Part shown: piece by piece, positions 886-58,002 of the stretch
Numbering within the stretch: the stretch's first letter is position 1
Layout of the letters: every line of letters begins with the position of its first letter
From: Blastocatellia bacterium
GTDB taxonomy: Bacteria; Acidobacteriota; Blastocatellia; UBA7656
Direction: 5' to 3'
DNA length: 64,000 nucleotides
Assembly: GCA_963765495.1 (NCBI GenBank)
Contig: CAVXWP010000009.1
Location: 809,240 to 873,239, forward strand
Translations under genes and position numbers: made by a program
Notes under the pieces: generated by a model
Seen by the model: only the letters and a program-made list of their open reading frames with translations
Told to the model about the DNA's origin: nothing
The model's database searches: none

Positions 886-1003
886 GTCACAAACTGAAAT
901 CGACGAAGCAGATTATAAAGACTTCGATCGGGTCAGAGAGCAGTTTCCCGCGCTTCGAGATAAAGTCTTTCTCGACGCGGCCTGCGTGATGCGTGAGATT
1001 TGA
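886..1003 (+). pseudogene. 39-aa remnant resembling the N-terminus of a class-V aminotransferase / cysteine desulfurase (MSQTEIDEADYKDFDRVREQFPALRDKVFLDAA...)
   Basis: FP.L....FLDAA resembles SufS/CsdA N-termini; the ORF stops inside the left arm of a heptamer-repeat hairpin and the rest of the gene is absent. Confidence 0.35.
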
Positions 1004-1064
1004 GATGTCCGGCTAATAAGGAATTTGCCTTTAAGGTCACGCATCACGCATCACGCATCACGAA
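984..1064. repeat. Heptamer-repeat hairpin element: arms (TGCGTGA)2 at 984-997 and (TCACGCA)3TCACGAA at 1037-1064
   Basis: Inverted tandem heptamers read directly; same family as 25024-25116 and 57908-58002. Confidence 0.7.
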
Positions 1065-2965: not shown

Positions 2966-4081
2966 TCAGATTCGAATTGCAGGTTCGGCGAGTCGCGCCG
3001 AGACAGCCTCTGTGACGGCGCTGACCGGGATGTCCATACATTGCCAGTGCCAGCATTTACGGCGATGGCACTCGTCGCGGCACCAGAGGTCGCGGCCTAC
3101 CGTCAGATCGCGTTTGTCGAAAGGGCCGTTGCGCTCGGGAGATGTCGGGCCGTAAATGCCGACTATGGGAGTGCGGCAGGCAGCCGCCAGATGTAGCGGC
3201 CCTGTGTCGCCGCCTACGAATAGCTCCGCCCGCCGGGCAAGAGCCGCGAATTGCTTTAGCGATGAGCGAAAGGGGCGGGCCGCGCCTGTCCGCGAACTGG
3301 CCGCTACAGCTTCGGCCAGCGCCTCCTCGCCCGGCCCGTAGGTTACAAACGATACGATCTGGCGCTCCGTCCACAACCAGTCCGCCACCTGTCCGTAACT
3401 CGAAACCGGCCAGAGCTTTGTCGGCCAGCCGCCGCCCGGGTTGAGTATGGCAAACCGTCTGCCTCGCTCGTTGATGGTTTCCATGACATAGCCTTCGTCT
3501 TCGCTGGGGATGACGATGGGAAATTCGTAGGCGGGCTGGCCAGACCGGGGATGAGTTATTCCTGACGCGCACGCGACATTCGGAGAATTTACGGCGAGGG
3601 AATCAAGGGCCGCACGGGCCAGCGCAAGATTCTTGTCAATAACATGTTTAATCTCTGCCGTCTTTACTTGATTGTTTAGAAAAAGACGACTTGCCTTTTC
3701 GCGCAGCTCGCCTGTTTCAAACCCCATCCGGCTCGCCGCCCTTGAGGCAGCCACGACCAGCCCGGATTTAATAAGCCCCTGAAAATCTATGGCAACATCT
3801 ATTGAGGATCGGGATTCATTTTTTAAGCCTCCCCGAACACGCCCGATCTGCTCACGGATGTCCGCAATAGTTGCATCGTTTAGCGGGCGCTTGCGCCAGG
3901 CGCGGGTGTCAACCTCTATCAATTCATCTATGGCGGGACAGTCTTTAAGAATGGCGCTCGCACGCCGCTCTACCACCCACGAGATGTGAGCGTCAGACAA
4001 ATTTCGCCTGATCTCAGCCGCCGCCGGCAGCGTATGAACCACGTCGCCTATCGAACTGAGCTTGACTATCAATATTTGCAT
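2966..4081 (-). CDS. Glycosyltransferase family 9 (ADP-heptose:LPS heptosyltransferase-like)
   Basis: N-terminus MQILIVKLSSIGDVVHTLPA is the canonical GT9 start; C-terminal GGDTGPLHLAAA motif. Confidence 0.85.
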   Translation of the reverse strand: MQILIVKLSSIGDVVHTLPAAAEIRRNLSDAHISWVVERRASAILKDCPAIDELIEVDTRAWRKRPLNDATIADIREQIGRVRGGLKNESRSSIDVAIDFQGLIKSGLVVAASRAASRMGFETGELREKASRLFLNNQVKTAEIKHVIDKNLALARAALDSLAVNSPNVACASGITHPRSGQPAYEFPIVIPSEDEGYVMETINERGRRFAILNPGGGWPTKLWPVSSYGQVADWLWTERQIVSFVTYGPGEEALAEAVAASSRTGAARPFRSSLKQFAALARRAELFVGGDTGPLHLAAACRTPIVGIYGPTSPERNGPFDKRDLTVGRDLWCRDECHRRKCWHWQCMDIPVSAVTEAVSARLAEPAIRI

Positions 4082-4222
4082 CGTATCCGGGTAAATAGAG
4101 ACTTTCGAAAAATCGCAAAGAGAGATTATACCACCTACCTCCCTCCTTAATTCATTACCCGAGTCGGCACAAGTACTGAAAGCGGCAACTGCTTCCGCCC
4201 GGATTTCTCTAATCCTCAATTC

Positions 4223-4420
4223 CAAAAATTGGTAACACTTTTGGCCACTCATCTGAAATGATCCGGCAGATACATTACTCCGTTTCCATATGTTTTGTAA
4301 TATATAAATCATTCAAATTTGGCAATTTATCTTACTTAAGTCTTCTTTTACAGATGTTTTCCGGATGTGGCAGTGGTTGTTGGTTATCCAAATATTTGGA
4401 ATTTAATTCAAATATTTGGA
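4223..4420. promoter_or_regulatory. Three copies of palindrome TCCAAA-(A/T)n-TTTGGA (4223-4236, 4387-4400, 4407-4420) in the divergent region upstream of the TonB-dependent receptor gene
   Basis: TCCAAATATTTGGA is a perfect 14-bp palindrome; related TTCCAAAATTTTGGAA recurs upstream of the paralogous receptor at 10697-10712. Confidence 0.45.
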
Positions 4421-4720
4421 TAAATTCAATAAAATTGATCTTCATTGAGGAACAAGAGAAAGCGAGCTAAATAGAGTTATAGCTAAGTTAAGCTCCCAAA
4501 CGGGTTTTCAGGTATAGGAATTGCCTGTATTGAACCGACTCAGGGGACATCCAGAGAGATTATGGGGCAATGCAACAAAGGTACTCACCGACTTTAGATA
4601 CGAGTGTATTTGGTCAAGCACAGGCTCCATTTTTATCAGTATTTCAAGGATAAGCTACTCCCCAAACTCTGTCGGTGAGCAAGACCAAACAATTCAACTA
4701 TTTATGAAGGAGGAGAATCC

Positions 4721-10712: not shown

Positions 10713-10968
10713 GCCTACGAACTTTACAAACGAATGGAAAGAGGCTGAAAAGAGCTAAGTAAAAGATATTACTATCTTAACCTGAAACGCTGAATCTTGG
10801 GTATCAAAGTTGCCAGGAAGGGCGGCTACGGGGAATTCCTATAATATTGCGAATGAACAAAACCGAGGCTCCGAACTTCGCAGTAGGATAGGAAAGCTAC
10901 TTCCCAATCTTAGCTAGAGATCAAAGACCTAAAATTTAGGATATCTGTATTTAGAAGGAGGAGAATCT

Positions 10969-24543: not shown

Positions 24544-25020
24544 ATGGCCTACATCGTAGACGGCAACAACGTAATGGGTCAAACGCCGGGCTGGCATCGC
24601 GACAAATCCGGGGCGCGCCGAGGGCTGCTTGAGCAACTGGCCGCTTTCGCGCATGTCAAAAAGGCTCGCGTAACGGCCGTATTTGACGGCGCTCCTGACG
24701 AGGGCGTGCCGGAGGGGTCTGCCTATCACGGCGTCAAAGTGCTTTACGCTAAGAGGGGATCGGATGCCGACACTCGAATCGAACAACTCGTAGAGTCGGC
24801 CCGTGATCGGCGCGGGCTGATCGTCGTCACATCGGATCGACGGCTTGCGCACGCGATTCGCTCGCTCGGCGCATCCGTCCTGCGGTCGGGAGAGTTCAGG
24901 AATTTGATCGAAGAGGTGATTGCCGGTCGCCCGCTCGCCGAAGACGGAGAGCAGTTCGATCTCGGAGATATGAATGAGTGGCTCAGATATTTCGGCGCTT
25001 CGCCCGAAGACGATGTGTGA
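24544..25020 (+). CDS. NYN/PIN-like domain protein, YacP (Rae1)-like
   Basis: MAYIVDGNNVMGQ N-terminus and about 158 aa length match YacP-like NYN proteins. Confidence 0.65.
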   Translation: MAYIVDGNNVMGQTPGWHRDKSGARRGLLEQLAAFAHVKKARVTAVFDGAPDEGVPEGSAYHGVKVLYAKRGSDADTRIEQLVESARDRRGLIVVTSDRRLAHAIRSLGASVLRSGEFRNLIEEVIAGRPLAEDGEQFDLGDMNEWLRYFGASPEDDV

Positions 25021-25023
25021 TGG

Positions 25024-25116
25024 GTGATATGTGATACGTGATACGTGATTCGTTGTCTTGATTGCCATCTCCGGTCACGCATCACGAATCACGTATCACT
25101 TACCCTGTATCACGAA
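25024..25116. repeat. Heptamer-repeat hairpin element: arms (GTGATAY)4 and TCACGCA-TCACGAA-TCACGTA-TCAC
   Basis: Inverted tandem heptamers starting at the stop codon of the NYN gene. Confidence 0.7.
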
Positions 25117-25129
25117 GGAGGTAATAGGC

Positions 25130-26791
25130 ATGGCTTACGAACGGCCTCGAGCTTACCGCGATGTAAGGGTAGGCGAATTGCTCACGCTGCTTGCGCGAGA
25201 CTACCCGCAGAACGAGGCGCTGATTTATCCCGACCGCGAGCTTAGATACGATTTCAGTCAGCTTGAATGGTTCGCCCGCCAGATAGCCAGAGGGCTGTTG
25301 AGCATCGGTGTAGAGCGGGGCGACCGCGTGGCCCTGTGGGCGCATAACATCCCGGAATGGGTCGTCTTGCAATTCGCCCTCGCAAAGATCGGAGCCATAC
25401 TCGTTACCGTAAATACCAGCCTCCGCGCTGCGGAAATCGAATACCTGCTCAGGCAATCGGAGACCAGCACGCTCATCACCGTGGCGGGCTTTCGCGATCT
25501 TGATTATGTAAAGACCATCTACGAGATCATCCCCGAATTGCGCGGGGCGAAAGAGGGCGCGCTCCATTCAATGAAGTTCCCCTATCTTCGCAACATAATT
25601 TATATCGGCGATGAGCATCCGGGTGGGATGCTCCGTTACGACTCTTTGCTCGACCGTTCGGGGCGGGTGAGCGATGATCAGCTAAACGCCCACTCGGATA
25701 TGCAGGACCTCGACGACGTGATAAACATGCAGTACACCTCGGGCACAACGGGCTTTCCAAAAGGGGTTATGCTGACGCATCGCAACATAGTAAACAACGG
25801 CTACTGGCTGGCCGAAGGGCTTGCGCTCACTTCAAGCGACAGGTTGTGCGTGCCCGTGCCTTTCTTTCATTGCTTCGGCTGTGTGATCGGAGTGCTGGGT
25901 GCTTACACTCACGCGGCTGCGATGATTCCGCTTGAATACTTCGACCCGTTGCGAGTGCTTCAATACGTGGAACGCGAAAGATGTACAGCCCTTTACGGGG
26001 TGCCGACCATGTTCATAGCCGAGCTTGAACAACTCGATTATCACTGTTTCGATATGTCGAGTTTGAGGACGGGCATAATGGCGGGCTCGCTGTGTCCCGA
26101 ATCGCTCATGCGAAAAGTGATGGAAAAGATGAACCTGACCGAGATGACCATCGCCTATGGATTGACCGAAGCCTCGCCCGGAATAACGCACACGCCGCGA
26201 GATGACAGCATCGAGTTGCGTACGCAGACCGTAGGCCGCGTGATGCCCGAAATGGAAGTCAAAATCATCGACCCGGCCACGGGCGAAGAATGCCTGCCCG
26301 GCAAATCCGGTGAGTTGTGCTGTCGCGGTTACAACGTGATGAAGGGGTATTACAACAACAAACAGGCCACAAGTGAGGCGATTGATGAAGAAGGATGGCT
26401 GCACACGGGCGATCAGGCCAGTATGGATGAGCGGGGGTATGTCAGGATCACCGGGCGTATAAAAGACCTGATAATTCGCGGCGGCGAAAACATCGCGCCA
26501 AAAGAGATTGAAGACCTGTTGCGCACGCATCCGAAGATCGCCGATGCCTATGTTTATGGTGTGCCCGATGAACGCTACGGCGAAGAGGTCGCCGTGGCTG
26601 TCCGCCTAAAGCCCGGCGAGACGGCAACCCCGGATGAAATCCGCGCATATTGCGAAGGCCGCATAGCCAAATTCAAATATCCGCGCCACATCCGTTTCGT
26701 CGAATCATTCCCCATGACGGCTTCTGGCAAGGTGCAGAAGTTCAAGCTGAGAGAAATGCATGCTCGGGGGCCGGGGGCCGGGGACCAGTAG
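25130..26791 (+). CDS. AMP-dependent synthetase/ligase (acyl-CoA synthetase family)
   Basis: [15 protein letters not shown]-binding motif, [13 protein letters not shown], and C-terminal lysine motif [10 protein letters not shown]; RBS GAAGGAGG. Confidence 0.9.
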
Positions 26792-26947
26792 GTGGGGGCC
26801 GGGAAGCATAAGATTACTTTTCGCTTGCTAACTCCAATAGCAAATCAGCAAGCGACATTATAAAGTACGCTTAGCCTTGATTGGTAAACCGGCCCCTGAT
26901 CCCCGGCCCCCGGCCCCTACCTTATGGCCCCTGACCCCCGGCCCCCA
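26766..26947. repeat. GGGGCC/GGCCCC-rich palindromic element: left arm GGGGGCCGGGGGCCGGGGA inside the 3' end of the synthetase ORF; right arms GGCCCCTGATCCCCGGCCCCCGGCCCC and GGCCCCTGACCCCCGGCCCCC; nested 8-bp hairpin CGCTTGCT/AGCAAGCG in the loop
   Basis: Read directly; same repeat family occurs in-frame at 47736-47902. Confidence 0.7.
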
Positions 26948-30688: not shown

Positions 30689-31379
<691 letters not shown>

Positions 31380-31592
31380 ATACACGAATAATTCTTCTAT
31401 TTCGTGTGCTTCGTGTATTTCGTGGTTCACTTTTTGTTAAGACAGAATTTCTAAACCGAGAATTGCTGACAAGACAAGCCCTTTGTTATCAGTGTCATCA
31501 AGAAGGTGATTGAAATGCTTAATTACGAACCGATAAAGAATCGGCTTTGGGTTGTTGAGGAGACTCGAATAAGAATTCGCGGGGAGAAAGAA

Positions 31593-39033: not shown

Positions 39034-39042
39034 GAGATATTA

Positions 39043-39108
39043 GGTTTTGGATTTTGGATTGGCCGGACACAATCGGGCCCGGTTTTTCAAGTCCAAAATC
39101 CAAAACCT
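39043..39108 (+). terminator. Compound hairpin after the purC stop: AT-rich 19-bp outer stem (AGGTTTTGGATTTTGGA... / ...TCCAAAATCCAAAACCT) with inner GC hairpin and TTTTT
   Basis: Inverted repeat read directly; inner GGGCCCGG followed by TTTTTC. Confidence 0.45.
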
Positions 39109-39124
39109 AATGTCGGGAACGGTA

Positions 39125-46885: not shown

Positions 46886-48456
46886 TGACAAGTCATTCGA
46901 AGCTCTTGCCAGGCGGTGTCGAGCGAGAAATGCTGACCTTCATAATATTCAAGGTCTCGCTTGTCGCTCTCGGCATTTTGAGCCTTGCGCTTTATCACAT
47001 CAGCGCGCCTCTTTACCGCTATTCGCCGGGCAACGTAACCTACATCGCCACCTTTATCGGCCAATTCGCGTTTTACCTTCTGGCCTGTTACGCGGTTACT
47101 CGCTTTCGCGCAACAGACGCGGCCCGCAATTTATCATCGGTCACGATTTTCACGCTGATGATAGTGCTGATGTTTGCGGCGGCTTTTCGCGCAAGGCTTG
47201 TGACCGAGCCGCCCTTCCTGTCGAGCGATGTTTACCGCTATATCTGGGACGGTCGCGTGCAGGCATCGGGCATCAACCCTTACCGTTACATTCCGGCAGA
47301 AGAGGAACTGGCTCCTCTGCGAGACGACCTGATCTATGCCAACATAAATCGCAAGGATTTCGCGCATACGATCTATCCACCCGTAGCGCAGGCGATATTT
47401 TTGGCCTCATACCTTGTACGGCCATCGAGCGTGACGACATTCAAAGTAACGATGAGTTTGTTTGACGCGCTTGCGGCGCTGGCCATAATGCTTGCGCTTG
47501 CGCGGGCAAGGATGGACCCCGCGCTTGTCATCTTTTTCGCATGGCATCCACTGGTAATCTGGGAAGGCGCGCACAGCGGTCATATCGAATCGGCAAGCAT
47601 GGCGTTTCTGGCGCTCGCGCTTCTCTGTTGGACCTATGAAAAACGCGCTCTTACCGGCGTAGCCCTCGCGCTCGCAACCCTGGTCAAACTCTATCCGATC
47701 ATGCTGCTGCCGGTGTTTGCCGCGGCGAAATTGCCGCAGGGGCCAGCTTCGCAGGGGCCAGCTTCGCAGGAGCCAGGGGCCGGGGGCCAGCTTCGCAGGG
47801 GCCGGGGGCCGGGGGCCGGGGGGCTGGGGGCTGGGGATGAGAAGAAAGCTACAGGCAAGAAAATTGACCTGATAAACCTACTGGCCCCCGGCCCCCGGCC
47901 CCTGCTCCATCTGGCAGCTGCATTTATCCTCACGATCATAATCGCGTATCTGCCTTATCTGAGCGTAGGCGCGAAAGTGATAGGATACCTGCCGGGATAT
48001 TTGAAAGAAGAAGGATATATGCACGCCGGGAATCGCTATTTTCTGCTGAGCCTCGTGCGATGGTTTGTCCCTTTGCCGACTGCCGCATACTCTGTTTTTT
48101 CGGCCCTCGCTCTACTGGGGTTCGGCGTGTGGCAGCTATTGAAACCGAAACGCAACGTTACGGATGTCGCTCGCGGAGCCGCTCAGTTGATAGGGCTTTT
48201 CATGATACTCAGCAGCCCTCGCTATAGCTGGTATGTAGCGTGGATAATTCCATTTCTCTGCTTTGCGCCACGGGCGGCCTGGCTATATCTGACCGGCGCT
48301 TCGGTCTTGCTTTATCTGCTCTGGTTCACGACCGATTATCCCAATATCCCTTTATGGCTGGGCGCGGCGATTTATGTGCCGGCCCTCGCGCTGTTTATCA
48401 GGGATAGGGTCAAGATAAAAGTTGTGAAAGAGAAGGCAAGCGCGTCACAGGCTTGA
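46885..48456 (+). CDS. Polytopic membrane protein, DUF2029 / GT87-like glycosyltransferase family, with a low-complexity loop insertion encoded by a GGGGCC-type repeat
   Basis: Many TM helices; loop PQGPASQGPASQEPGAGGQLRRGRGPGAGGLGAGD...LLAPGPRP is encoded by repeat DNA at 47736-47902. Confidence 0.6.
   Translation: MTSHSKLLPGGVEREMLTFIIFKVSLVALGILSLALYHISAPLYRYSPGNVTYIATFIGQFAFYLLACYAVTRFRATDAARNLSSVTIFTLMIVLMFAAAFRARLVTEPPFLSSDVYRYIWDGRVQASGINPYRYIPAEEELAPLRDDLIYANINRKDFAHTIYPPVAQAIFLASYLVRPSSVTTFKVTMSLFDALAALAIMLALARARMDPALVIFFAWHPLVIWEGAHSGHIESASMAFLALALLCWTYEKRALTGVALALATLVKLYPIMLLPVFAAAKLPQGPASQGPASQEPGAGGQLRRGRGPGAGGLGAGDEKKATGKKIDLINLLAPGPRPLLHLAAAFILTIIIAYLPYLSVGAKVIGYLPGYLKEEGYMHAGNRYFLLSLVRWFVPLPTAAYSVFSALALLGFGVWQLLKPKRNVTDVARGAAQLIGLFMILSSPRYSWYVAWIIPFLCFAPRAAWLYLTGASVLLYLLWFTTDYPNIPLWLGAAIYVPALALFIRDRVKIKVVKEKASASQA
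47736..47902. repeat. GGGGCC/GGCCCC palindromic element (15-bp tandem CAGGGGCCAGCTTCG x3, then GGGGCCGGGGGCCGGGGGCC... / GGCCCCCGGCCCCCGGCCCC arms) embedded in-frame in the DUF2029 gene
   Basis: Read directly; same family as 26766-26947. Confidence 0.7.
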
Positions 48457-49379: not shown

Positions 49380-50957
49380 ATGCGAATTAATTTTCGGTTT
49401 TTCAACAAGAGTGTAATCACGAGCCTGATTCTGATTGTGGCCGTTTCCTGTATGGGGGCGCAGCAGAAGAGTGTCCGGCAATCGGCTCTGACCCGGAGCA
49501 GGCAGGCGACTCTTGATCATATCTCCGCTTCGTCGCTCGAAGGCCATCTGTCATTTATCGCCTCTGACATGCTCGAAGGGCGCAACACTCCATCAACGGG
49601 GCTCGATACTGCCGCTCTGTATATTGCCGCGCAGTTTCGCCGCGCAGGTCTCGAACCCGCGGGCGATGATGGTTATTTTCAAACGGCCAACTGGCTTGTT
49701 TCAGAGCGTACGCCTGATGGGTTTGAGCTAAAGTTTGATACCGGGAAAGAGACTATCAAGGTCGATAAGGATCGGGTGAGCATTTCTCTTAATCAGGCCC
49801 TCGATCTTTCGCGCGCTCCTTTGCTCAAGGTGAATTATGAAGATTCTGCGGCTATCTCGGCGCTTGGCGTTGATGCGCAGGGAAAGGCGATACTGACCGA
49901 GATACCCGATTTTCGCAAAGCAGACCGTTCTCGACGGGGCGAACTGTATCAGGCCAGAAGCCAGTTCATGAGGAAGATGGGAGAGGTTAAAGCGGCTGTG
50001 ATTATTTCGATTGACCGGAGCAGTCCGACCGGCACAGGCCCCGCGTCCAGCCGGTTGATAGACCCCGAAAACCGCCGAGATATCGCTTCAACCGCTTCAA
50101 CGCCTTTCATCACCGTTCACGATCCGGCAGTAGTAAAAATGTATGACTCGATGGCATCTGCATCGAATACGGGTACGGTCTCTATTCATCTTGCCGCGCC
50201 TGACGAGCACCCCGTCAAGCTGCGCAATGTCATAGGCATCCTGCGCGGATCGGACCCGCAGTTGAAAGATACTTATGTGCTGGTCACAGCGCATTACGAT
50301 CATATTGGCGTGGACCCGAGTCTTCCGGGCGACAAAATATTTAACGGCGCGAACGATGATGGGAGCGGCACGGTTTCGGTCATCGAGATAGCATCGGCCC
50401 TGGCCACGCTGAAGGCGCGACCAAAACGGACCCTTGTTTTTATGACCGTCTTTGGCGAAGAGAAAGGGCTGCTCGGCTCGCGTTATTACGGACGGCACCC
50501 GATCTTTCCAATCGAGAAGACTGTAGCCGACATCAATCTTGAACAGGTAGGCCGCACCGACAGCACCGAAGGGCCGCAAATCGCTAATGCCTCGCTGACG
50601 GGTTTTGATTATTCCGATGTAGGGGAGATTCTGAAACAAGCCGGCTCGCTTACAGGCATCACCGTCTATAAGCATGCCCAGAATAGCGATGCCTATTTTG
50701 GCCGCAGCGACAACCAGGCGCTTGCCGATCAAGGTGTCCCCGCTCATACGCTGTGCGTGGCTTTCGATTACGCCGACTATCACGGCGCGGGCGATCACTG
50801 GGAGAAAATAGACTATGCAAACATGGCTAAGGTAGACCGCATGGTAGCTCTCGCGCTCATAATGATTGCCGATAGCCGGGACGCGCCAAAGTGGAATGAA
50901 GCAAACCCAAAGACCGCCCGCTATGTGAAGGCATGGCAGGAGCACCACGGGAAGTAA
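49380..50957 (+). CDS. M28 family peptidase (secreted aminopeptidase)
   Basis: NVIGILRGSD, VLVTAHYDHIG, GANDDGSGTVSVIE and FGEEKGLLGSRYY motifs. Confidence 0.85.
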   Translation: MRINFRFFNKSVITSLILIVAVSCMGAQQKSVRQSALTRSRQATLDHISASSLEGHLSFIASDMLEGRNTPSTGLDTAALYIAAQFRRAGLEPAGDDGYFQTANWLVSERTPDGFELKFDTGKETIKVDKDRVSISLNQALDLSRAPLLKVNYEDSAAISALGVDAQGKAILTEIPDFRKADRSRRGELYQARSQFMRKMGEVKAAVIISIDRSSPTGTGPASSRLIDPENRRDIASTASTPFITVHDPAVVKMYDSMASASNTGTVSIHLAAPDEHPVKLRNVIGILRGSDPQLKDTYVLVTAHYDHIGVDPSLPGDKIFNGANDDGSGTVSVIEIASALATLKARPKRTLVFMTVFGEEKGLLGSRYYGRHPIFPIEKTVADINLEQVGRTDSTEGPQIANASLTGFDYSDVGEILKQAGSLTGITVYKHAQNSDAYFGRSDNQALADQGVPAHTLCVAFDYADYHGAGDHWEKIDYANMAKVDRMVALALIMIADSRDAPKWNEANPKTARYVKAWQEHHGK

Positions 50958-51146
50958 AACCGTGGCAACTGAATTTTAGTTTTCCTCAAACGGATTAGCT
51001 CATATTAGGTCAGATCCGCGTATATCCGCCGCATCCGCGTCCGTCCCGGCCTATTAACCCCGCCTTTCATTCAAATCCATCTGCACCGATCTCTCGGGGT
51101 ATGATTTAGAGGCTGTGACCGCAAATATGCAAAACTCGTCTAAGGG

Positions 51147-51322
51147 GGAGCATGCTCAGGGCTATTGCAAAGTAGCTTGACATGTATGGTAGGGGCAGGG
51201 CTTGTCCCTGCCCGGATCGCCCGAAGGGCGATGACTGTCATCGCGCTTACGCGCGATTCGGGCAGCCACAAGGGCTGCCCCTACATTTTTGCTCGACTTT
51301 GCAATAGCCCTGGGAGCATGCT
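51147..51322. repeat. Highly structured intergenic element: 27-bp terminal inverted repeats (GGAGCATGCTCAGGGCTATTGCAAAGT / ACTTTGCAATAGCCCTGGGAGCATGCT) enclosing four internal hairpins
   Basis: Read directly; internal hairpins GGGCAGGG/CCCTGCCC, ATCGCCC/GGGCGAT, ATCGCGC/GCGCGAT and GGGCAGCC/GGCTGCCC. Confidence 0.7.
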
Positions 51323-51404
51323 AAAGCAGATTTCCCCATGTCTGCTCGCTCCATTACAATACAAACAGGACGCTGTGAGCAGATGTCGGTAGCAATCGAG
51401 GATT

Positions 51405-52043
51405 ATGCAGCTATTGCTTGCAGTGCTCATAGAGTTCTGGAGTCTCCTCAGAAAACTCGGGGGGCTTGGCCTGATCCTTATGGGTTTTCTTGACAGTTCC
51501 GTCATTCCAACCCCGGGCGGGTTGGATTTGCTGACCATCGTGCTTGCGGCGGGGCAAAAAACCTGGTGGCCTTATTATGCCGCGATGGCTGTTGCCGGGT
51601 CGGTTATCGGCGGGTATCTGAGCTATGAACTTGGGCGCAAGGGCGGTGAAGAGGCCATTGAAAAAAGAATGTCCAAAAAGAAATTTGACCGCGTATGCCG
51701 AGCCTTCGAGAAATGGGGATTCGGAGCCGTCTTTGTACCCACGATCCTGCCTCCCCCTTTTCCGATAGGTCCGATTTTTATGGGCGCGGGGGCGCTTGAT
51801 TATCCGCTCAAAAAATTCCTGCTCGCGCTCACCGCAGGCCGCGTCATCAGATTCACTATAGTCGCTTACATGGCTTCAAGATATGGCCAGTACGTAATAA
51901 AGTTCTTCTCAGATAATTACGTGATGATACTCCTGATAATCGCGGGGCTGACGGCAGCAGGAGGCTTAGCCTTTTTTCTTTTCCGCTCACACGACAAACA
52001 AACCAAAAAGAAAGCGTCCGATGCCACGGCAAGCGGAGATTAA
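51405..52043 (+). CDS. DedA/YqaA family membrane protein
   Basis: GFLDSSVIPTPGGLDLL motif and 4-5 TM helices. Confidence 0.7.
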   Translation: MQLLLAVLIEFWSLLRKLGGLGLILMGFLDSSVIPTPGGLDLLTIVLAAGQKTWWPYYAAMAVAGSVIGGYLSYELGRKGGEEAIEKRMSKKKFDRVCRAFEKWGFGAVFVPTILPPPFPIGPIFMGAGALDYPLKKFLLALTAGRVIRFTIVAYMASRYGQYVIKFFSDNYVMILLIIAGLTAAGGLAFFLFRSHDKQTKKKASDATASGD

Positions 52044-57904: not shown

Positions 57905-57907
57905 AAC

Positions 57908-58002
57908 GTGACCAGTGACGCGTGATTCGTGAAAAGGGAATCAACTGATGACGATTCGGGTCCCTGAAAATCACGCATCACGCGTCACTGGTCACGAATC
58001 AC
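57908..58002. repeat. Heptamer-repeat hairpin element: arms GTGACCA-GTGACGC-GTGATTC-GTGA and TCACGCA-TCACGCG-TCACTGG-TCACGAA-TCAC
   Basis: Read directly; about 25-bp arms, about 38-nt loop. Confidence 0.7.

What the first reader, a model, noticed from the sequence alone, without database searches (positions are those of the whole stretch)
51147..51322. A 175-bp multi-hairpin element with 27-bp terminal inverted repeats between the M28 peptidase and a DedA-family gene
Near-perfect 27-bp terminal inverted repeats enclose four consecutive short GC-rich hairpins, each 7-8 bp. That is far more structure than a terminator needs. Candidates are a MITE, a structured small RNA or cis-regulatory RNA, or a recombination site.
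Basis: seen in the sequence. Interest (0 to 1): 0.55.

Follow-up and report, generated by a model that had tools for sequence, protein, structure and literature searches.

The report
Miniature transposon carrying a REP doublet
The element is a 156-bp non-coding "jumping gene" remnant with the end sequences of an ISAs1-family insertion sequence, and its interior is a copy of a second, unrelated kind of mobile repeat (a REP doublet); this is an ordinary class of genomic parasite with an unusual nested build.

Summary
The "27-bp terminal inverted repeat" is really two features. One is a perfect 17-nt inverted repeat, CAGGGCTATTGCAAAGT (51157-51173 / 51296-51312). The other is a perfect 10-bp direct repeat, GGAGCATGCT, abutting both ends, which also reads as inverted because AGCATGCT is a palindrome. 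That is the signature of a MITE with a target-site duplication.

The same 17-mer ends 1305-bp insertion sequences in a Blastocatellia genome. These have 10-bp duplications and encode an ISAs1-family transposase. It also differs at one position from the published ISArsp11 end.

The four-hairpin interior (51189-51284, GTAG...CTAC) is a separate repeat. In soil metagenomes it occurs mostly naked and without duplications, and inverted copies flank a REP-associated tyrosine transposase gene, so it is a REPIN-type REP doublet. Covariation supports the four local hairpins, not the single long hairpin.

Five copies from five contigs share the shell-plus-core build, each with a 9-10-bp duplication. The same core also sits inside a second, unrelated MITE shell.

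There is no Rfam match and no promoter. One hairpin plus a T-run looks like a terminator. The window holds one copy and neither transposase. No empty site could be found. Overall: a known kind of element in a new nested variant.

The parts
51147..51156 (.). Left copy of the 10-bp target-site duplication, GGAGCATGCT
   Evidence: Perfect direct repeat of 51313-51322, abutting the TIR (D2). Family members and the full-length ISs have 10-bp duplications.
51157..51173 (+). Left terminal inverted repeat, CAGGGCTATTGCAAAGT (ISAs1-type end, starts CAGGG)
   Evidence: 100% complementary to 51296-51312 (I2). Identical to the left end of the 1305-bp ISAs1-family IS in Blastocatellia MFD09212. 16/17 identical to the IRR of ISArsp11 (PMC6305408, Table 3).
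51174..51188 (+). Subterminal IS-derived segment AGCTTGACATGTATG (TTGACA at 51177-51182)
   Evidence: Window 51157-51184 matches the transposase-proximal end of a second ISAs1-type IS (L012:7380-7407) at 23/28 positions, including AGCTTGACA. nGnTTGACA is conserved at the same place in 4 of the 5 shell copies and decayed to TTGATA in L150.
51189..51284 (.). REP doublet (REPIN-type core), GTAG...CTAC, 96 nt, four hairpins
   Evidence: Covariance model score 104.6 bits on + and 99.2 on -. The same core occurs in more than 120 metagenome contigs. Of 87 complete cores, 64 are naked and these lack duplications. Inverted copies flank a RAYT gene.
51193..51213 (.). Hairpin 1 (GGGCAGGG CTTGT CCCTGCCC), the conserved REP hairpin after the GTAG tag
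   Evidence: I7. 99% of cells paired across 25 copies, but nearly invariant, and it was part of the search pattern.
51216..51232 (.). Hairpin 2 (ATCGCCC GAA GGGCGAT), variable sequence with a conserved stem
   Evidence: I12. 4 of 7 pairs show changes on both sides across copies.
51240..51257 (.). Hairpin 3 (ATCGCGC TTAC GCGCGAT), variable sequence with a conserved stem
   Evidence: I14. 4 of 7 pairs show changes on both sides.
51260..51280 (.). Hairpin 4 (GGGCAGCC ACAAG GGCTGCCC), the inverted REP hairpin before CTAC. With the following CTACATTTTT it looks like an intrinsic terminator on the + strand.
   Evidence: I8. 3 pairs show changes on both sides (GG/CC swapped to CC/GG), which keep the local stem and break the long-range fold. 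Terminator-like hit.
51285..51295 (+). Linker ATTTTTGCTCG between the core and the right TIR (4 nt in the other shell copies; the T-run is specific to this copy)
   Evidence: Comparison of the five shell copies.
51296..51312 (-). Right terminal inverted repeat, ACTTTGCAATAGCCCTG
   Evidence: I2.
51313..51322 (.). Right copy of the 10-bp target-site duplication, GGAGCATGCT
   Evidence: D2.
49380..50957 (+). Upstream neighbour: M28 family peptidase gene (context, not part of the element)
   Evidence: Pfam PF04389, E = 6.9e-39. The closest homologues (62-69% identity) are all from Blastocatellia.
51405..52043 (+). Downstream neighbour: DedA/VTT-domain membrane protein gene (context). Its start lies 82 nt after the right duplication.
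   Evidence: Pfam PF09335, E = 2.1e-16.

Best explanation
The element is a nested, non-autonomous mobile element. Its shell is a MITE derived from an ISAs1-family insertion sequence. The shell keeps the two 17-nt terminal inverted repeats and about 15 nt of the transposase-proximal end, and has no gene. It was inserted into the peptidase-DedA spacer by an ISAs1-type DDE transposase supplied from elsewhere, which duplicated 10 bp of target (GGAGCATGCT). Its cargo is a REP doublet (REPIN type): GTAG, a conserved hairpin, two variable hairpins, the inverted conserved hairpin, then CTAC. Elsewhere this doublet is a free-standing repeat spread by a REP-associated tyrosine transposase (RAYT) acting on single-stranded DNA hairpins. 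Shown: the anatomy, the homology of the ends to ISAs1 ISs, the duplications, the RAYT association of the core, and the conservation of the four hairpins. Inferred: that shell and core transposed as one unit, that the transposase acted in trans, and that any present-day effect on the neighbouring genes (possible termination after the peptidase gene) is incidental.
For: (1) A perfect 17-nt TIR is flanked by a perfect 10-bp direct repeat. The chance of a 10-bp abutting repeat is about 1e-6 (own arithmetic). (2) The identical 17-mer starts a 1305-bp element present in at least 10 copies in Blastocatellia MFD09212, with 10-bp duplications. Its 395-aa ORF scores 224.7 bits on NCBIfam NF033564, ISAs1 family transposase (cutoff 70), and hits Pfam DDE_Tnp_1 and DDE_Tnp_1_assoc. 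(3) The published ISAs1 element ISArsp11 is 1306 bp, has IRR CAGGGCTAATGCAAAGTCG and a 10-bp DR (PMC6305408). (4) The window's left end matches the transposase-proximal end of a second ISAs1-type IS at 23/28 positions, beyond the TIR. (5) Among genome loci with the 17-mer, 36 have a second end plus a duplication matching at 8 or more of 10 positions: 23 short (44-288 bp), 12 of IS size and one of 454 bp. (6) Five shell-plus-core copies from five contigs have the same junctions and their own duplications: 10/10 in the window, L150, L159 and L182, and 9 bp with one mismatch in L107. (7) The core occurs in more than 120 metagenome contigs. 64 of 87 complete cores are naked, with no duplication in 55 of 64. 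(8) Inverted cores flank a 158-aa gene that scores 115.8 bits on NF047646, REP-associated tyrosine transposase (cutoff 80), matches PDB 4ER8 TnpA-REP at 5.7e-11, and shows HFH and Y motifs on direct reading. (9) For the four local hairpins, 95.5% of cells are paired, 11 pairs change on both sides, and the covariation score is 0.265 against 0.02-0.07 when slid, with 0/500 shuffles as high.
Against: The window holds only one copy and encodes neither an ISAs1 transposase nor a RAYT, so activity in this genome is not shown. No orthologous empty site was found, because relatives are only about 68% identical in the peptidase and the downstream gene differs in each. Only five shell-plus-core copies were recovered, each from a different contig, so amplification within one genome is not shown. 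The cores of the shell copies differ from one another as much as naked cores do, which a single capture does not readily explain. Hairpin 1 was part of the metagenome search pattern, so its invariance is partly due to ascertainment.
Confidence: 0.85

Rival explanations
1. The element is a structured small RNA or cis-regulatory RNA (in the 3' UTR of the peptidase gene or the 5' UTR of the DedA gene), and its four hairpins are conserved for an RNA function.
For: There is strong covariation in three of the four hairpins, very stable folding, and an intergenic location between two genes on the same strand.
Against: No Rfam family matches at gathering score, and the permissive scan gives only noise. 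The same core lies in unrelated genomic contexts in more than 120 contigs and flanks a RAYT gene. It scores equally on both strands (104.6 and 99.2 bits). It is bounded by TIRs and a target duplication. Hairpin covariation is equally expected for single-stranded DNA substrates of HUH transposases (established knowledge of the IS200/IS605 and RAYT families).
Confidence: 0.04
2. Whatever its origin, the element now works as an intrinsic transcription terminator or mRNA-stabilising 3' structure for the peptidase gene, insulating the DedA gene, as has been reported for REP/SMAG and other MITEs.
For: Hairpin 4 (51260-51280, 8 pairs, 7 of them G-C) followed by CTACATTTTT is the only terminator-like site in 50900-51500 on the + strand. 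REPs downstream of genes alter transcript stability in Stenotrophomonas (reviewed in PMC3184786).
Against: The T-run is specific to this copy; the other shell copies have a 4-nt linker, so it is not a family feature. A single consensus hit is close to the chance expectation (0.5 per shuffle). The site lies about 300 nt after the stop codon. No expression data are available.
Confidence: 0.15
3. The element is a site-specific recombination site (dif-like, attC-like, or an integrase attachment site).
For: It is an imperfect palindrome with local hairpins.
Against: No recombinase or integrase gene is adjacent; the neighbours are a peptidase, a DedA protein and a histidine kinase. The ends match ISAs1 IS ends and carry a 10-bp duplication. 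The core is dispersed in hundreds of unrelated places.
Confidence: 0.01
4. Two independent events produced the structure rather than one composite element: a bare ISAs1-type MITE (two TIRs and little else, like the 44-bp element in L032) inserted here first, and a REP doublet was later inserted into it in place by a resident RAYT.
For: Minimal TIR-only elements exist (L032: 44 bp, perfect 10-bp duplication). The cores of the shell copies are as diverse as naked cores.
Against: All five shell copies have the core at the same junctions: TTGACA, 7 nt, then GTAG on one side, and CTAC, 4-11 nt, then the TIR on the other. Independent insertions would have to hit the same position five times. No RAYT or naked core is seen in the window.
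Confidence: 0.1

Closest known systems
ISAs1-family insertion sequences (e.g. ISArsp11 of Arthrobacter, 1306 bp; the 1305-bp element found here in Blastocatellia MFD09212) and MITEs derived from IS elements in general
   Same: The ends begin with CAGGG. The 17-nt TIR is identical to the Blastocatellia IS end and 16/17 identical to the ISArsp11 IRR. The target duplication is 10 bp. The subterminal sequence is shared with the transposase-proximal IS end. The element is small, non-coding and intergenic.
   Different: It has no transposase gene, so it depends on one supplied in trans, and none is present in the window. Its interior is not a remnant of the IS but a repeat of another mobile-element class.
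REP / REPIN elements with their RAYT (REP-associated tyrosine transposase), including the GTAG-tagged REPs and the 'double palindromic' inverted repeats flanking the tyrosine transposases of Acidobacteria described by Di Nocera et al. 2013 (PMC3733652)
   Same: The core has a GTAG tag, GC-rich hairpins and two units in inverted orientation forming a doublet of about 95 nt. It is a high-copy dispersed intergenic repeat in soil metagenomes, has no target duplication, and inverted units flank a RAYT gene (NF047646).
   Different: Each half carries two hairpins, one conserved and one hypervariable with compensatory changes, rather than one. The window copy is enclosed by DDE-transposon ends with a 10-bp duplication. 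No RAYT or other copy is seen in the 64-kb window.
IS elements that target REP sequences (IS1397, IS621, ISPpu9/ISPpu10; PMC3184786, PMC12288879)
   Same: These also involve physical association and nesting of IS-type elements with REP sequences.
   Different: The nesting is reversed. There the IS sits inside a split REP (REP-IS-REP). Here an intact REP doublet sits inside the IS-derived ends (TIR-REP doublet-TIR).
MITEs with structured or repetitive cargo (Neisseria Correia/NEMIS, ERIC, Bacillus bcr1, and the Porphyromonas MITE containing a minisatellite, PMC4596501)
   Same: These are TIR-bounded miniature elements whose interior folds into stable stem-loops and can affect neighbouring transcripts.
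   Different: In those, the interior is intrinsic to the MITE. The same holds for the Anaerolineae ISAs1-type MITEs seen here. In this element the interior is an independently mobile repeat.

Membership tests
[quoted passage not shown] | Terminal inverted repeats of about 15-30 bp | tested here: met
   Perfect 17-nt TIR at 51157-51173 / 51296-51312.
[quoted passage not shown] | Flanking target-site duplication of the length made by the cognate transposase | tested here: met
   Perfect 10-bp direct repeat GGAGCATGCT abutting both TIRs. The cognate ISs make 10-bp duplications.
[quoted passage not shown] | Small (under about 300 bp) with no coding capacity | tested here: met
   The element is 156 bp. 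Only mechanical ORFs cross it, and there is no tblastn match to either transposase.
[quoted passage not shown] | Several copies at different sites | tested here: inconclusive
   One copy in the 64-kb window. Four homologous copies with their own duplications were found in four other contigs (L107, L150, L159, L182). The copy number in the source genome cannot be determined from the window.
[quoted passage not shown] | Empty site in a related genome | tested here: inconclusive
   The nearest available relatives are about 68% identical in the peptidase and have a different downstream gene. No empty site could be compared.
ISAs1 family (derivative of) | Ends starting CAGGG, and a TIR matching known family members | tested here: met
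   The TIR CAGGGCTATTGCAAAGT is identical to the end of an IS whose ORF is an NF033564 ISAs1 transposase, and 16/17 identical to the ISArsp11 IRR. 'Ends CAGGG, DR 8-10 bp' for the family is from my own knowledge of the ISfinder family table.
ISAs1 family (derivative of) | Direct repeats of 8-10 bp | tested here: met
   10 bp here. 10 bp in the full-length copies and in ISArsp11.
ISAs1 family (derivative of) | A cognate ISAs1 transposase available in the same genome | not testable with these tools
   None in the window (tblastn).
REP / REPIN (RAYT-associated repeats) | GTAG tetranucleotide tag followed by a GC-rich palindrome | tested here: met
   GTAG at 51189-51192 is followed by GGGCAGGG..CCCTGCCC, and a mirrored CTAC lies at 51281-51284. 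The GTAG definition is from PMC3733652.
REP / REPIN (RAYT-associated repeats) | Two REP units in inverted orientation forming a doublet | tested here: met
   Hairpins 1+2 mirror hairpins 4+3. The REPIN definition is from PMC3337134 and PMC3116915.
REP / REPIN (RAYT-associated repeats) | The repeats flank a RAYT gene in inverted orientation | tested here: met
   In L117, cores at 4044+ and 4601- flank ORF 4101-4577, which scores 115.8 bits on NF047646 (cutoff 80). L162 has cores at 10891+ and 11427- around a 127-aa RAYT-like ORF that was read from its translation, not scored. L168 has the same spacing of matches, but its ORF was not examined.
REP / REPIN (RAYT-associated repeats) | High copy number in the host genome, with a resident RAYT | tested here: inconclusive
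   The core is abundant in soil metagenome contigs (more than 120), but the window has one copy and no RAYT. At the density seen in contigs, 1.7 further half-sites are expected in 64 kb, so P(0) = 0.18.
REP / REPIN (RAYT-associated repeats) | No target-site duplication (HUH-type mobilisation) | tested here: met
   Naked cores: 55 of 64 have no abutting direct repeat and the longest is 4 bp. The window copy's duplication belongs to the outer shell.
Curated structured RNA family (Rfam) | A match to a covariance model at gathering score | tested here: not met
   0 matches in the whole window. The permissive scan of 50900-51600 gives only hits with E of 0.69 or higher, far below the gathering scores.
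Intrinsic terminator | GC-rich hairpin followed by a T-run on the transcribed strand | tested here: inconclusive
   There is a pattern hit at 51260-51280 plus CTACATTTTT on the + strand. Chance expectation is 0.5 per region, and function was not tested.

The most novel reading that the evidence does not exclude
REP doublets, which are thought to depend on their own RAYT and to be inherited almost only vertically (Bertels and Rainey, bioRxiv 10.1101/2021.07.10.451892), can also travel as cargo inside DDE-transposon MITE shells. In Blastocatellia-type soil bacteria the same GTAG...CTAC doublet sits inside two unrelated shells: an ISAs1-type shell with 10-bp duplications and a TACATTGG-type shell with 5-bp duplications. 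Both shells have transposed with it. This gives the doublet a RAYT-independent and faster route of spread, possibly into genomes that lack the RAYT, such as (perhaps) the one in this window.
Probability: 0.3. Interest if true: 0.6.

Novelty: new variant of a known kind. Interest (0 to 1): 0.4.

Why it matters
For this locus it matters little. The element is a mobile-DNA remnant in an intergenic spacer, not a riboswitch, small RNA or recombination site, and annotators should mask it rather than model it as RNA.

The wider interest is the nesting. MITEs (DDE transposase, fast, parasitic) and REPINs (tyrosine HUH transposase, slow, vertically inherited) are treated as distinct classes with different dynamics. 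A REP doublet repeatedly found inside TIR shells that carry their own target duplications would mean the two systems can be coupled. It also gives a concrete pair of substrates for testing cross-mobilisation.

The work also documents a widespread clade of ISAs1-derived MITEs in Chloroflexota and Acidobacteriota. It shows a GTAG-tagged REP family in Blastocatellia-type soil bacteria whose inner hairpins are hypervariable yet always keep their stems.

Tried and rejected
1. Single long hairpin. This is the minimum-free-energy fold of this copy, but it has no covariation support across 25 copies: score 0.054 against 0.065 shuffled. The variable positions break it.

2. Rfam at gathering and permissive thresholds: nothing.

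3. Sigma-70-type promoter in or next to the element: none. The TTGACA at 51177 has no -10 partner.

4. Further copies in the window, by 17-mer with up to 3 mismatches, by blastn and by a covariance model with filters off: none.

5. Transposases in the window by tblastn: none.

6. Empty-site comparison through peptidase orthologues: upstream synteny is conserved, but the downstream gene differs in all four loci, so it was unusable. Exact-sequence look-up of the DedA protein found nothing. The only other contig with the identical peptidase stops 81 bp after the stop codon.

7. Test of whether the window genome lacks a REP population: no power, P(0) = 0.18.

8. Generalisation that ISAs1-type shells capture free local palindromes: rejected for the Anaerolineae MAGs, where the hairpin modules occur almost only inside shells (39 of 40 and 25 of 25).

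9. Literature search for a REP doublet nested in a MITE, or for ISAs1-derived MITEs: none found in the held library. That is weak evidence of novelty only.

Full report
OBSERVATION. The sequence at 51147-51322 is as described in outline. It lies between an M28 peptidase gene (49380-50957, +) and a DedA/VTT-domain gene (51405-52043, +). Four short GC-rich hairpins with stems of 8, 7, 7 and 8 bp are present (I7, I12, I14, I8). The region folds about ten standard deviations better than dinucleotide-preserving shuffles on either strand.

The '27-bp near-perfect terminal inverted repeat' needs correcting. The inverted repeat is 17 nt and perfect: CAGGGCTATTGCAAAGT at 51157-51173, with its complement at 51296-51312 (I2). 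It occurs nowhere else in the window even with three mismatches allowed, against 0.08 matches expected by chance. The 10 nt outside it, GGAGCATGCT, is a perfect direct repeat on both sides (51147-51156 and 51313-51322, D2). It reads as part of an inverted repeat only because its core AGCATGCT is itself a palindrome, and only with a 2-nt bulge. A TIR directly abutted by a direct repeat is the signature of transposition.

THE SHELL. The hits were strongly enriched in Chloroflexota and Blastocatellia, with many copies per genome in some MAGs.

In Blastocatellia MAG MFD09212 the 17-mer begins a 1305-bp element present in at least ten copies. Its second end is related (CAGGGTTCCTGCAAAGT), and it has 10-bp target duplications at nearly every copy. 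Its 395-aa ORF scores 224.7 bits on NCBIfam NF033564, ISAs1 family transposase (cutoff 70), and carries Pfam DDE_Tnp_1 and DDE_Tnp_1_assoc.

A published ISAs1 element, ISArsp11, is 1306 bp long. It has IRL CAGGGCTGATGCAAAGTCG, IRR CAGGGCTAATGCAAAGTCG and a 10-bp direct repeat (PMC6305408, Table 3). Its IRR differs from the window's terminus at one position.

Next to one MFD09212 copy lies the end of a second ISAs1-type IS. Its transposase is 63% identical over 175 aa (E = 1e-78). Its transposase-proximal end, CAGGGCTGTAACAAAGTAGCTTGACAAC, matches the window's left end at 23 of 28 positions, which extends beyond the TIR and includes the TTGACA.

Across the 115 loci, 36 have a recognisable second end plus a duplication matching at 8 or more of 10 positions. 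Of these, 23 are short (44-288 bp), 12 are of IS size (1305-1333 bp) and one is 454 bp. The ends of the window element are therefore those of a widespread ISAs1 clade that has produced many miniature derivatives. The element is one of them.

THE CORE. Only one genome locus, L107 (Blastocatellia SMAG_U8901), held a full homologue of the window element, at 76% identity. I used a motif conserved between the two interiors, GCAGGGCTYGTCCCTGCCCGRAT, for the single metagenome scan.

The raw sequences show that the interior is a repeat in its own right. Its form is GTAGGGGCAGGGCTYGTCCCTGCCC, a variable hairpin, a short spacer, a second variable hairpin, then GGGCAG..CTGCCCCTAC. Of 87 complete cores, 64 are naked, 14 lie inside a different TIR shell and 5 lie inside the ISAs1-type shell. 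Naked cores have no target duplication: 55 of 64 have none and the longest is 4 bp.

In L117, L162 and L168, two cores in inverted orientation lie about 500 bp apart. In L117 they bracket a 158-aa gene that scores 115.8 bits on NF047646, REP-associated tyrosine transposase (cutoff 80). The same protein hits Pfam Y1_Tnp and the solved E. coli TnpA-REP structure 4ER8 (5.7e-11), and shows the HFH and tyrosine motifs on direct reading. In L162 the bracketed 127-aa ORF looks RAYT-like from its translation but was not scored.

A GTAG tag, a GC-rich palindrome, inverted doublets, no duplication and a flanking RAYT are the defining features of REP/REPIN elements (PMC3733652, PMC3116915, PMC3337134). 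The core meets all of them. The 2013 survey had found tyrosine transposases with longer, partly 'double palindromic' flanking repeats in Acidobacteria. The two-hairpin half-unit here fits that picture.

STRUCTURE. I aligned 25 cores of 88-100 nt (A1). For the four local hairpins, 95.5% of cells are paired and 11 pairs change on both sides. The covariation score is 0.265, against 0.02-0.07 for every slid control, and 0 of 500 shuffles reach it.

Hairpins 2 and 3 are hypervariable in sequence with up to four pair types per position, yet almost always form perfect stems. Hairpin 4 alternates between GG..CC and CC..GG or AACC..GGTT forms. Hairpin 1 is invariant, but it was part of the search pattern, so that says little.

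The rival fold is one long hairpin pairing the left half with the right half. It is the minimum-free-energy structure of the window copy, but it has no covariation support (0.054 against 0.065 shuffled), and the variable positions break it.

Such conservation is expected for the single-stranded DNA substrates of HUH tyrosine transposases. It does not by itself argue for an RNA function.

THE COMPOSITE. The five ISAs1-shell copies (window, L107, L150, L159, L182) come from five different contigs and share one architecture. In order, this is: duplication, TIR, nGnTTGACA, 7 nt, the GTAG core ending in CTAC, 4-11 nt, TIR, duplication. The duplications are perfect at 10 bp in four copies and 9 bp with one mismatch in L107. 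L150 has a decayed left TIR but an intact duplication. Identical junctions at different insertion sites indicate that shell and core moved together as one unit after a single capture.

A second shell carries the same core. It is 118-203 bp long, has TACATTGGAAAGTAA ends and 5-bp duplications, and its copies have a median pairwise identity of 95%. The doublet has therefore entered TIR-bounded elements at least twice.

This is the reverse of the known association, in which ISs insert into REPs (PMC3184786, PMC12288879). I found no description of it in the held library, which is weak evidence of novelty only.

It is not a general property of the ISAs1 clade. In two Anaerolineae MAGs the stacked hairpins of the local 193-bp ISAs1-type MITE occur almost only inside shells.

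WHAT IS NOT SHOWN. The window has one copy and no ISAs1 transposase or RAYT. The organism is a Blastocatellia bacterium whose nearest available relatives are 62-69% identical in the peptidase. Their downstream gene differs in each case, so no empty site could be compared.

Whether the genome hosts a population of naked cores cannot be decided from 64 kb (P(0) = 0.18). A further 200 kb of other Acidobacteria loci holds none apart from the shell-borne copy in L107.

Effects on the neighbouring genes are conjecture. No sigma-70-type promoter was found. One terminator-like site was found: hairpin 4 plus a T-run that only this copy has.

VERDICT. The element is real and well above chance, and it is a mobile-DNA remnant. 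It is an ISAs1-derived MITE with a 10-bp target duplication, and its interior is a RAYT-type REP doublet. Both components are known kinds. The nested build, seen in two unrelated shells, is a new variant and of moderate interest to people who study bacterial repeats.

Noticed in passing
window 31325-31468: A 144-bp element with perfect 19-nt terminal inverted repeats (CAGCAATTCTCGGTTTAGA) and an abutting 9-bp direct repeat, ACAAGACAA, on both sides. It is probably another, unrelated MITE.
   Followed up: partly
window 26766-26946 and 47766-47905: Inverted arrays of short GGGGCC-type repeats (GGGGCCGGGGGCC...) facing each other across 60-105 nt of less GC-rich spacer. This is a different palindromic repeat family in intergenic DNA.
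   Followed up: no
window 969-1064, 25017-25113, 57907-57996: Three intergenic palindromes built from arrays of CGTGATN heptamers on one arm and TCACGNA on the other. [quoted passage not shown]
   Followed up: no
window 39036-39114: A palindrome built from GGATTTT heptamer repeats (23-nt arms, 96% complementary, 33 nt apart).
   Followed up: no
L124:1695-1851, L135:106-253, L137:849-996, L146, L167, L184, L185, L207, L233: A second miniature element family: TACATTGGAAAGTAA terminal repeats, 5-bp target duplications, 118-203 bp, median pairwise identity 95%. It carries the same GTAG...CTAC REP doublet. Its parent IS family was not identified.
   Followed up: partly
L005, L010, L011, L028, L040, L041, L044, L060, L071, L072, L104, L111, L115 (Anaerolineae MAGs F17_39 and F14_30): A high-copy ISAs1-type MITE of about 193 bp with the same 17-nt end, 10-bp duplications and four to five stacked short hairpins. 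Its hairpin modules occur almost only inside the shells.
   Followed up: partly
L032 (uncultured Chloroflexia MAG), 44-bp element starting at the 17-mer: A minimal element made of just two ISAs1-type terminal repeats with about 10 nt between them, flanked by a perfect 10-bp duplication, CGTCAGAGGC. This may be close to the smallest mobilisable unit.
   Followed up: no
alignment A1 (cores from window, L107 and metagenome loci), columns 28-44 and 53-70: Hairpins 2 and 3 of the REP doublet are hypervariable in sequence but almost always form perfect stems, with up to four pair types per position. Hairpin 1 is invariant. It is unexplained whether this reflects selection for shape or correction within the palindrome.
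   Followed up: partly
L127, L144, L163 (metagenome contigs): Tandem partial duplications of the left REP hairpin (GTAGGGGCAGGGCTTGTCCCTGCCCG repeated two or three times about 45 nt apart), resembling REP clusters (BIME-like).
   Followed up: no
naked cores in L117-L236: The base before GTAG is T in 43 of 64 naked cores, and the base after CTAC is A in 51 of 64. The conserved unit may therefore be TGTAG...CTACA, or the insertion site may be biased.
   Followed up: no
L001 (Logan contig of run ERR11718635), end of contig = window about 51038: The only other assembly with the identical peptidase stops 81 bp after the stop codon, about 119 bp before the element. This could be an assembly break near a repeat or simply low coverage.
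   Followed up: no
L054 (Streptomyces sp. NPDC057743) and L053 (Anaerolineae HKST-UBA12): Full-length elements of 1333 bp and 1320 bp start with the identical 17-mer and have 9-10-bp duplications. The same ISAs1 end sequence therefore spans at least three phyla.
   Followed up: no
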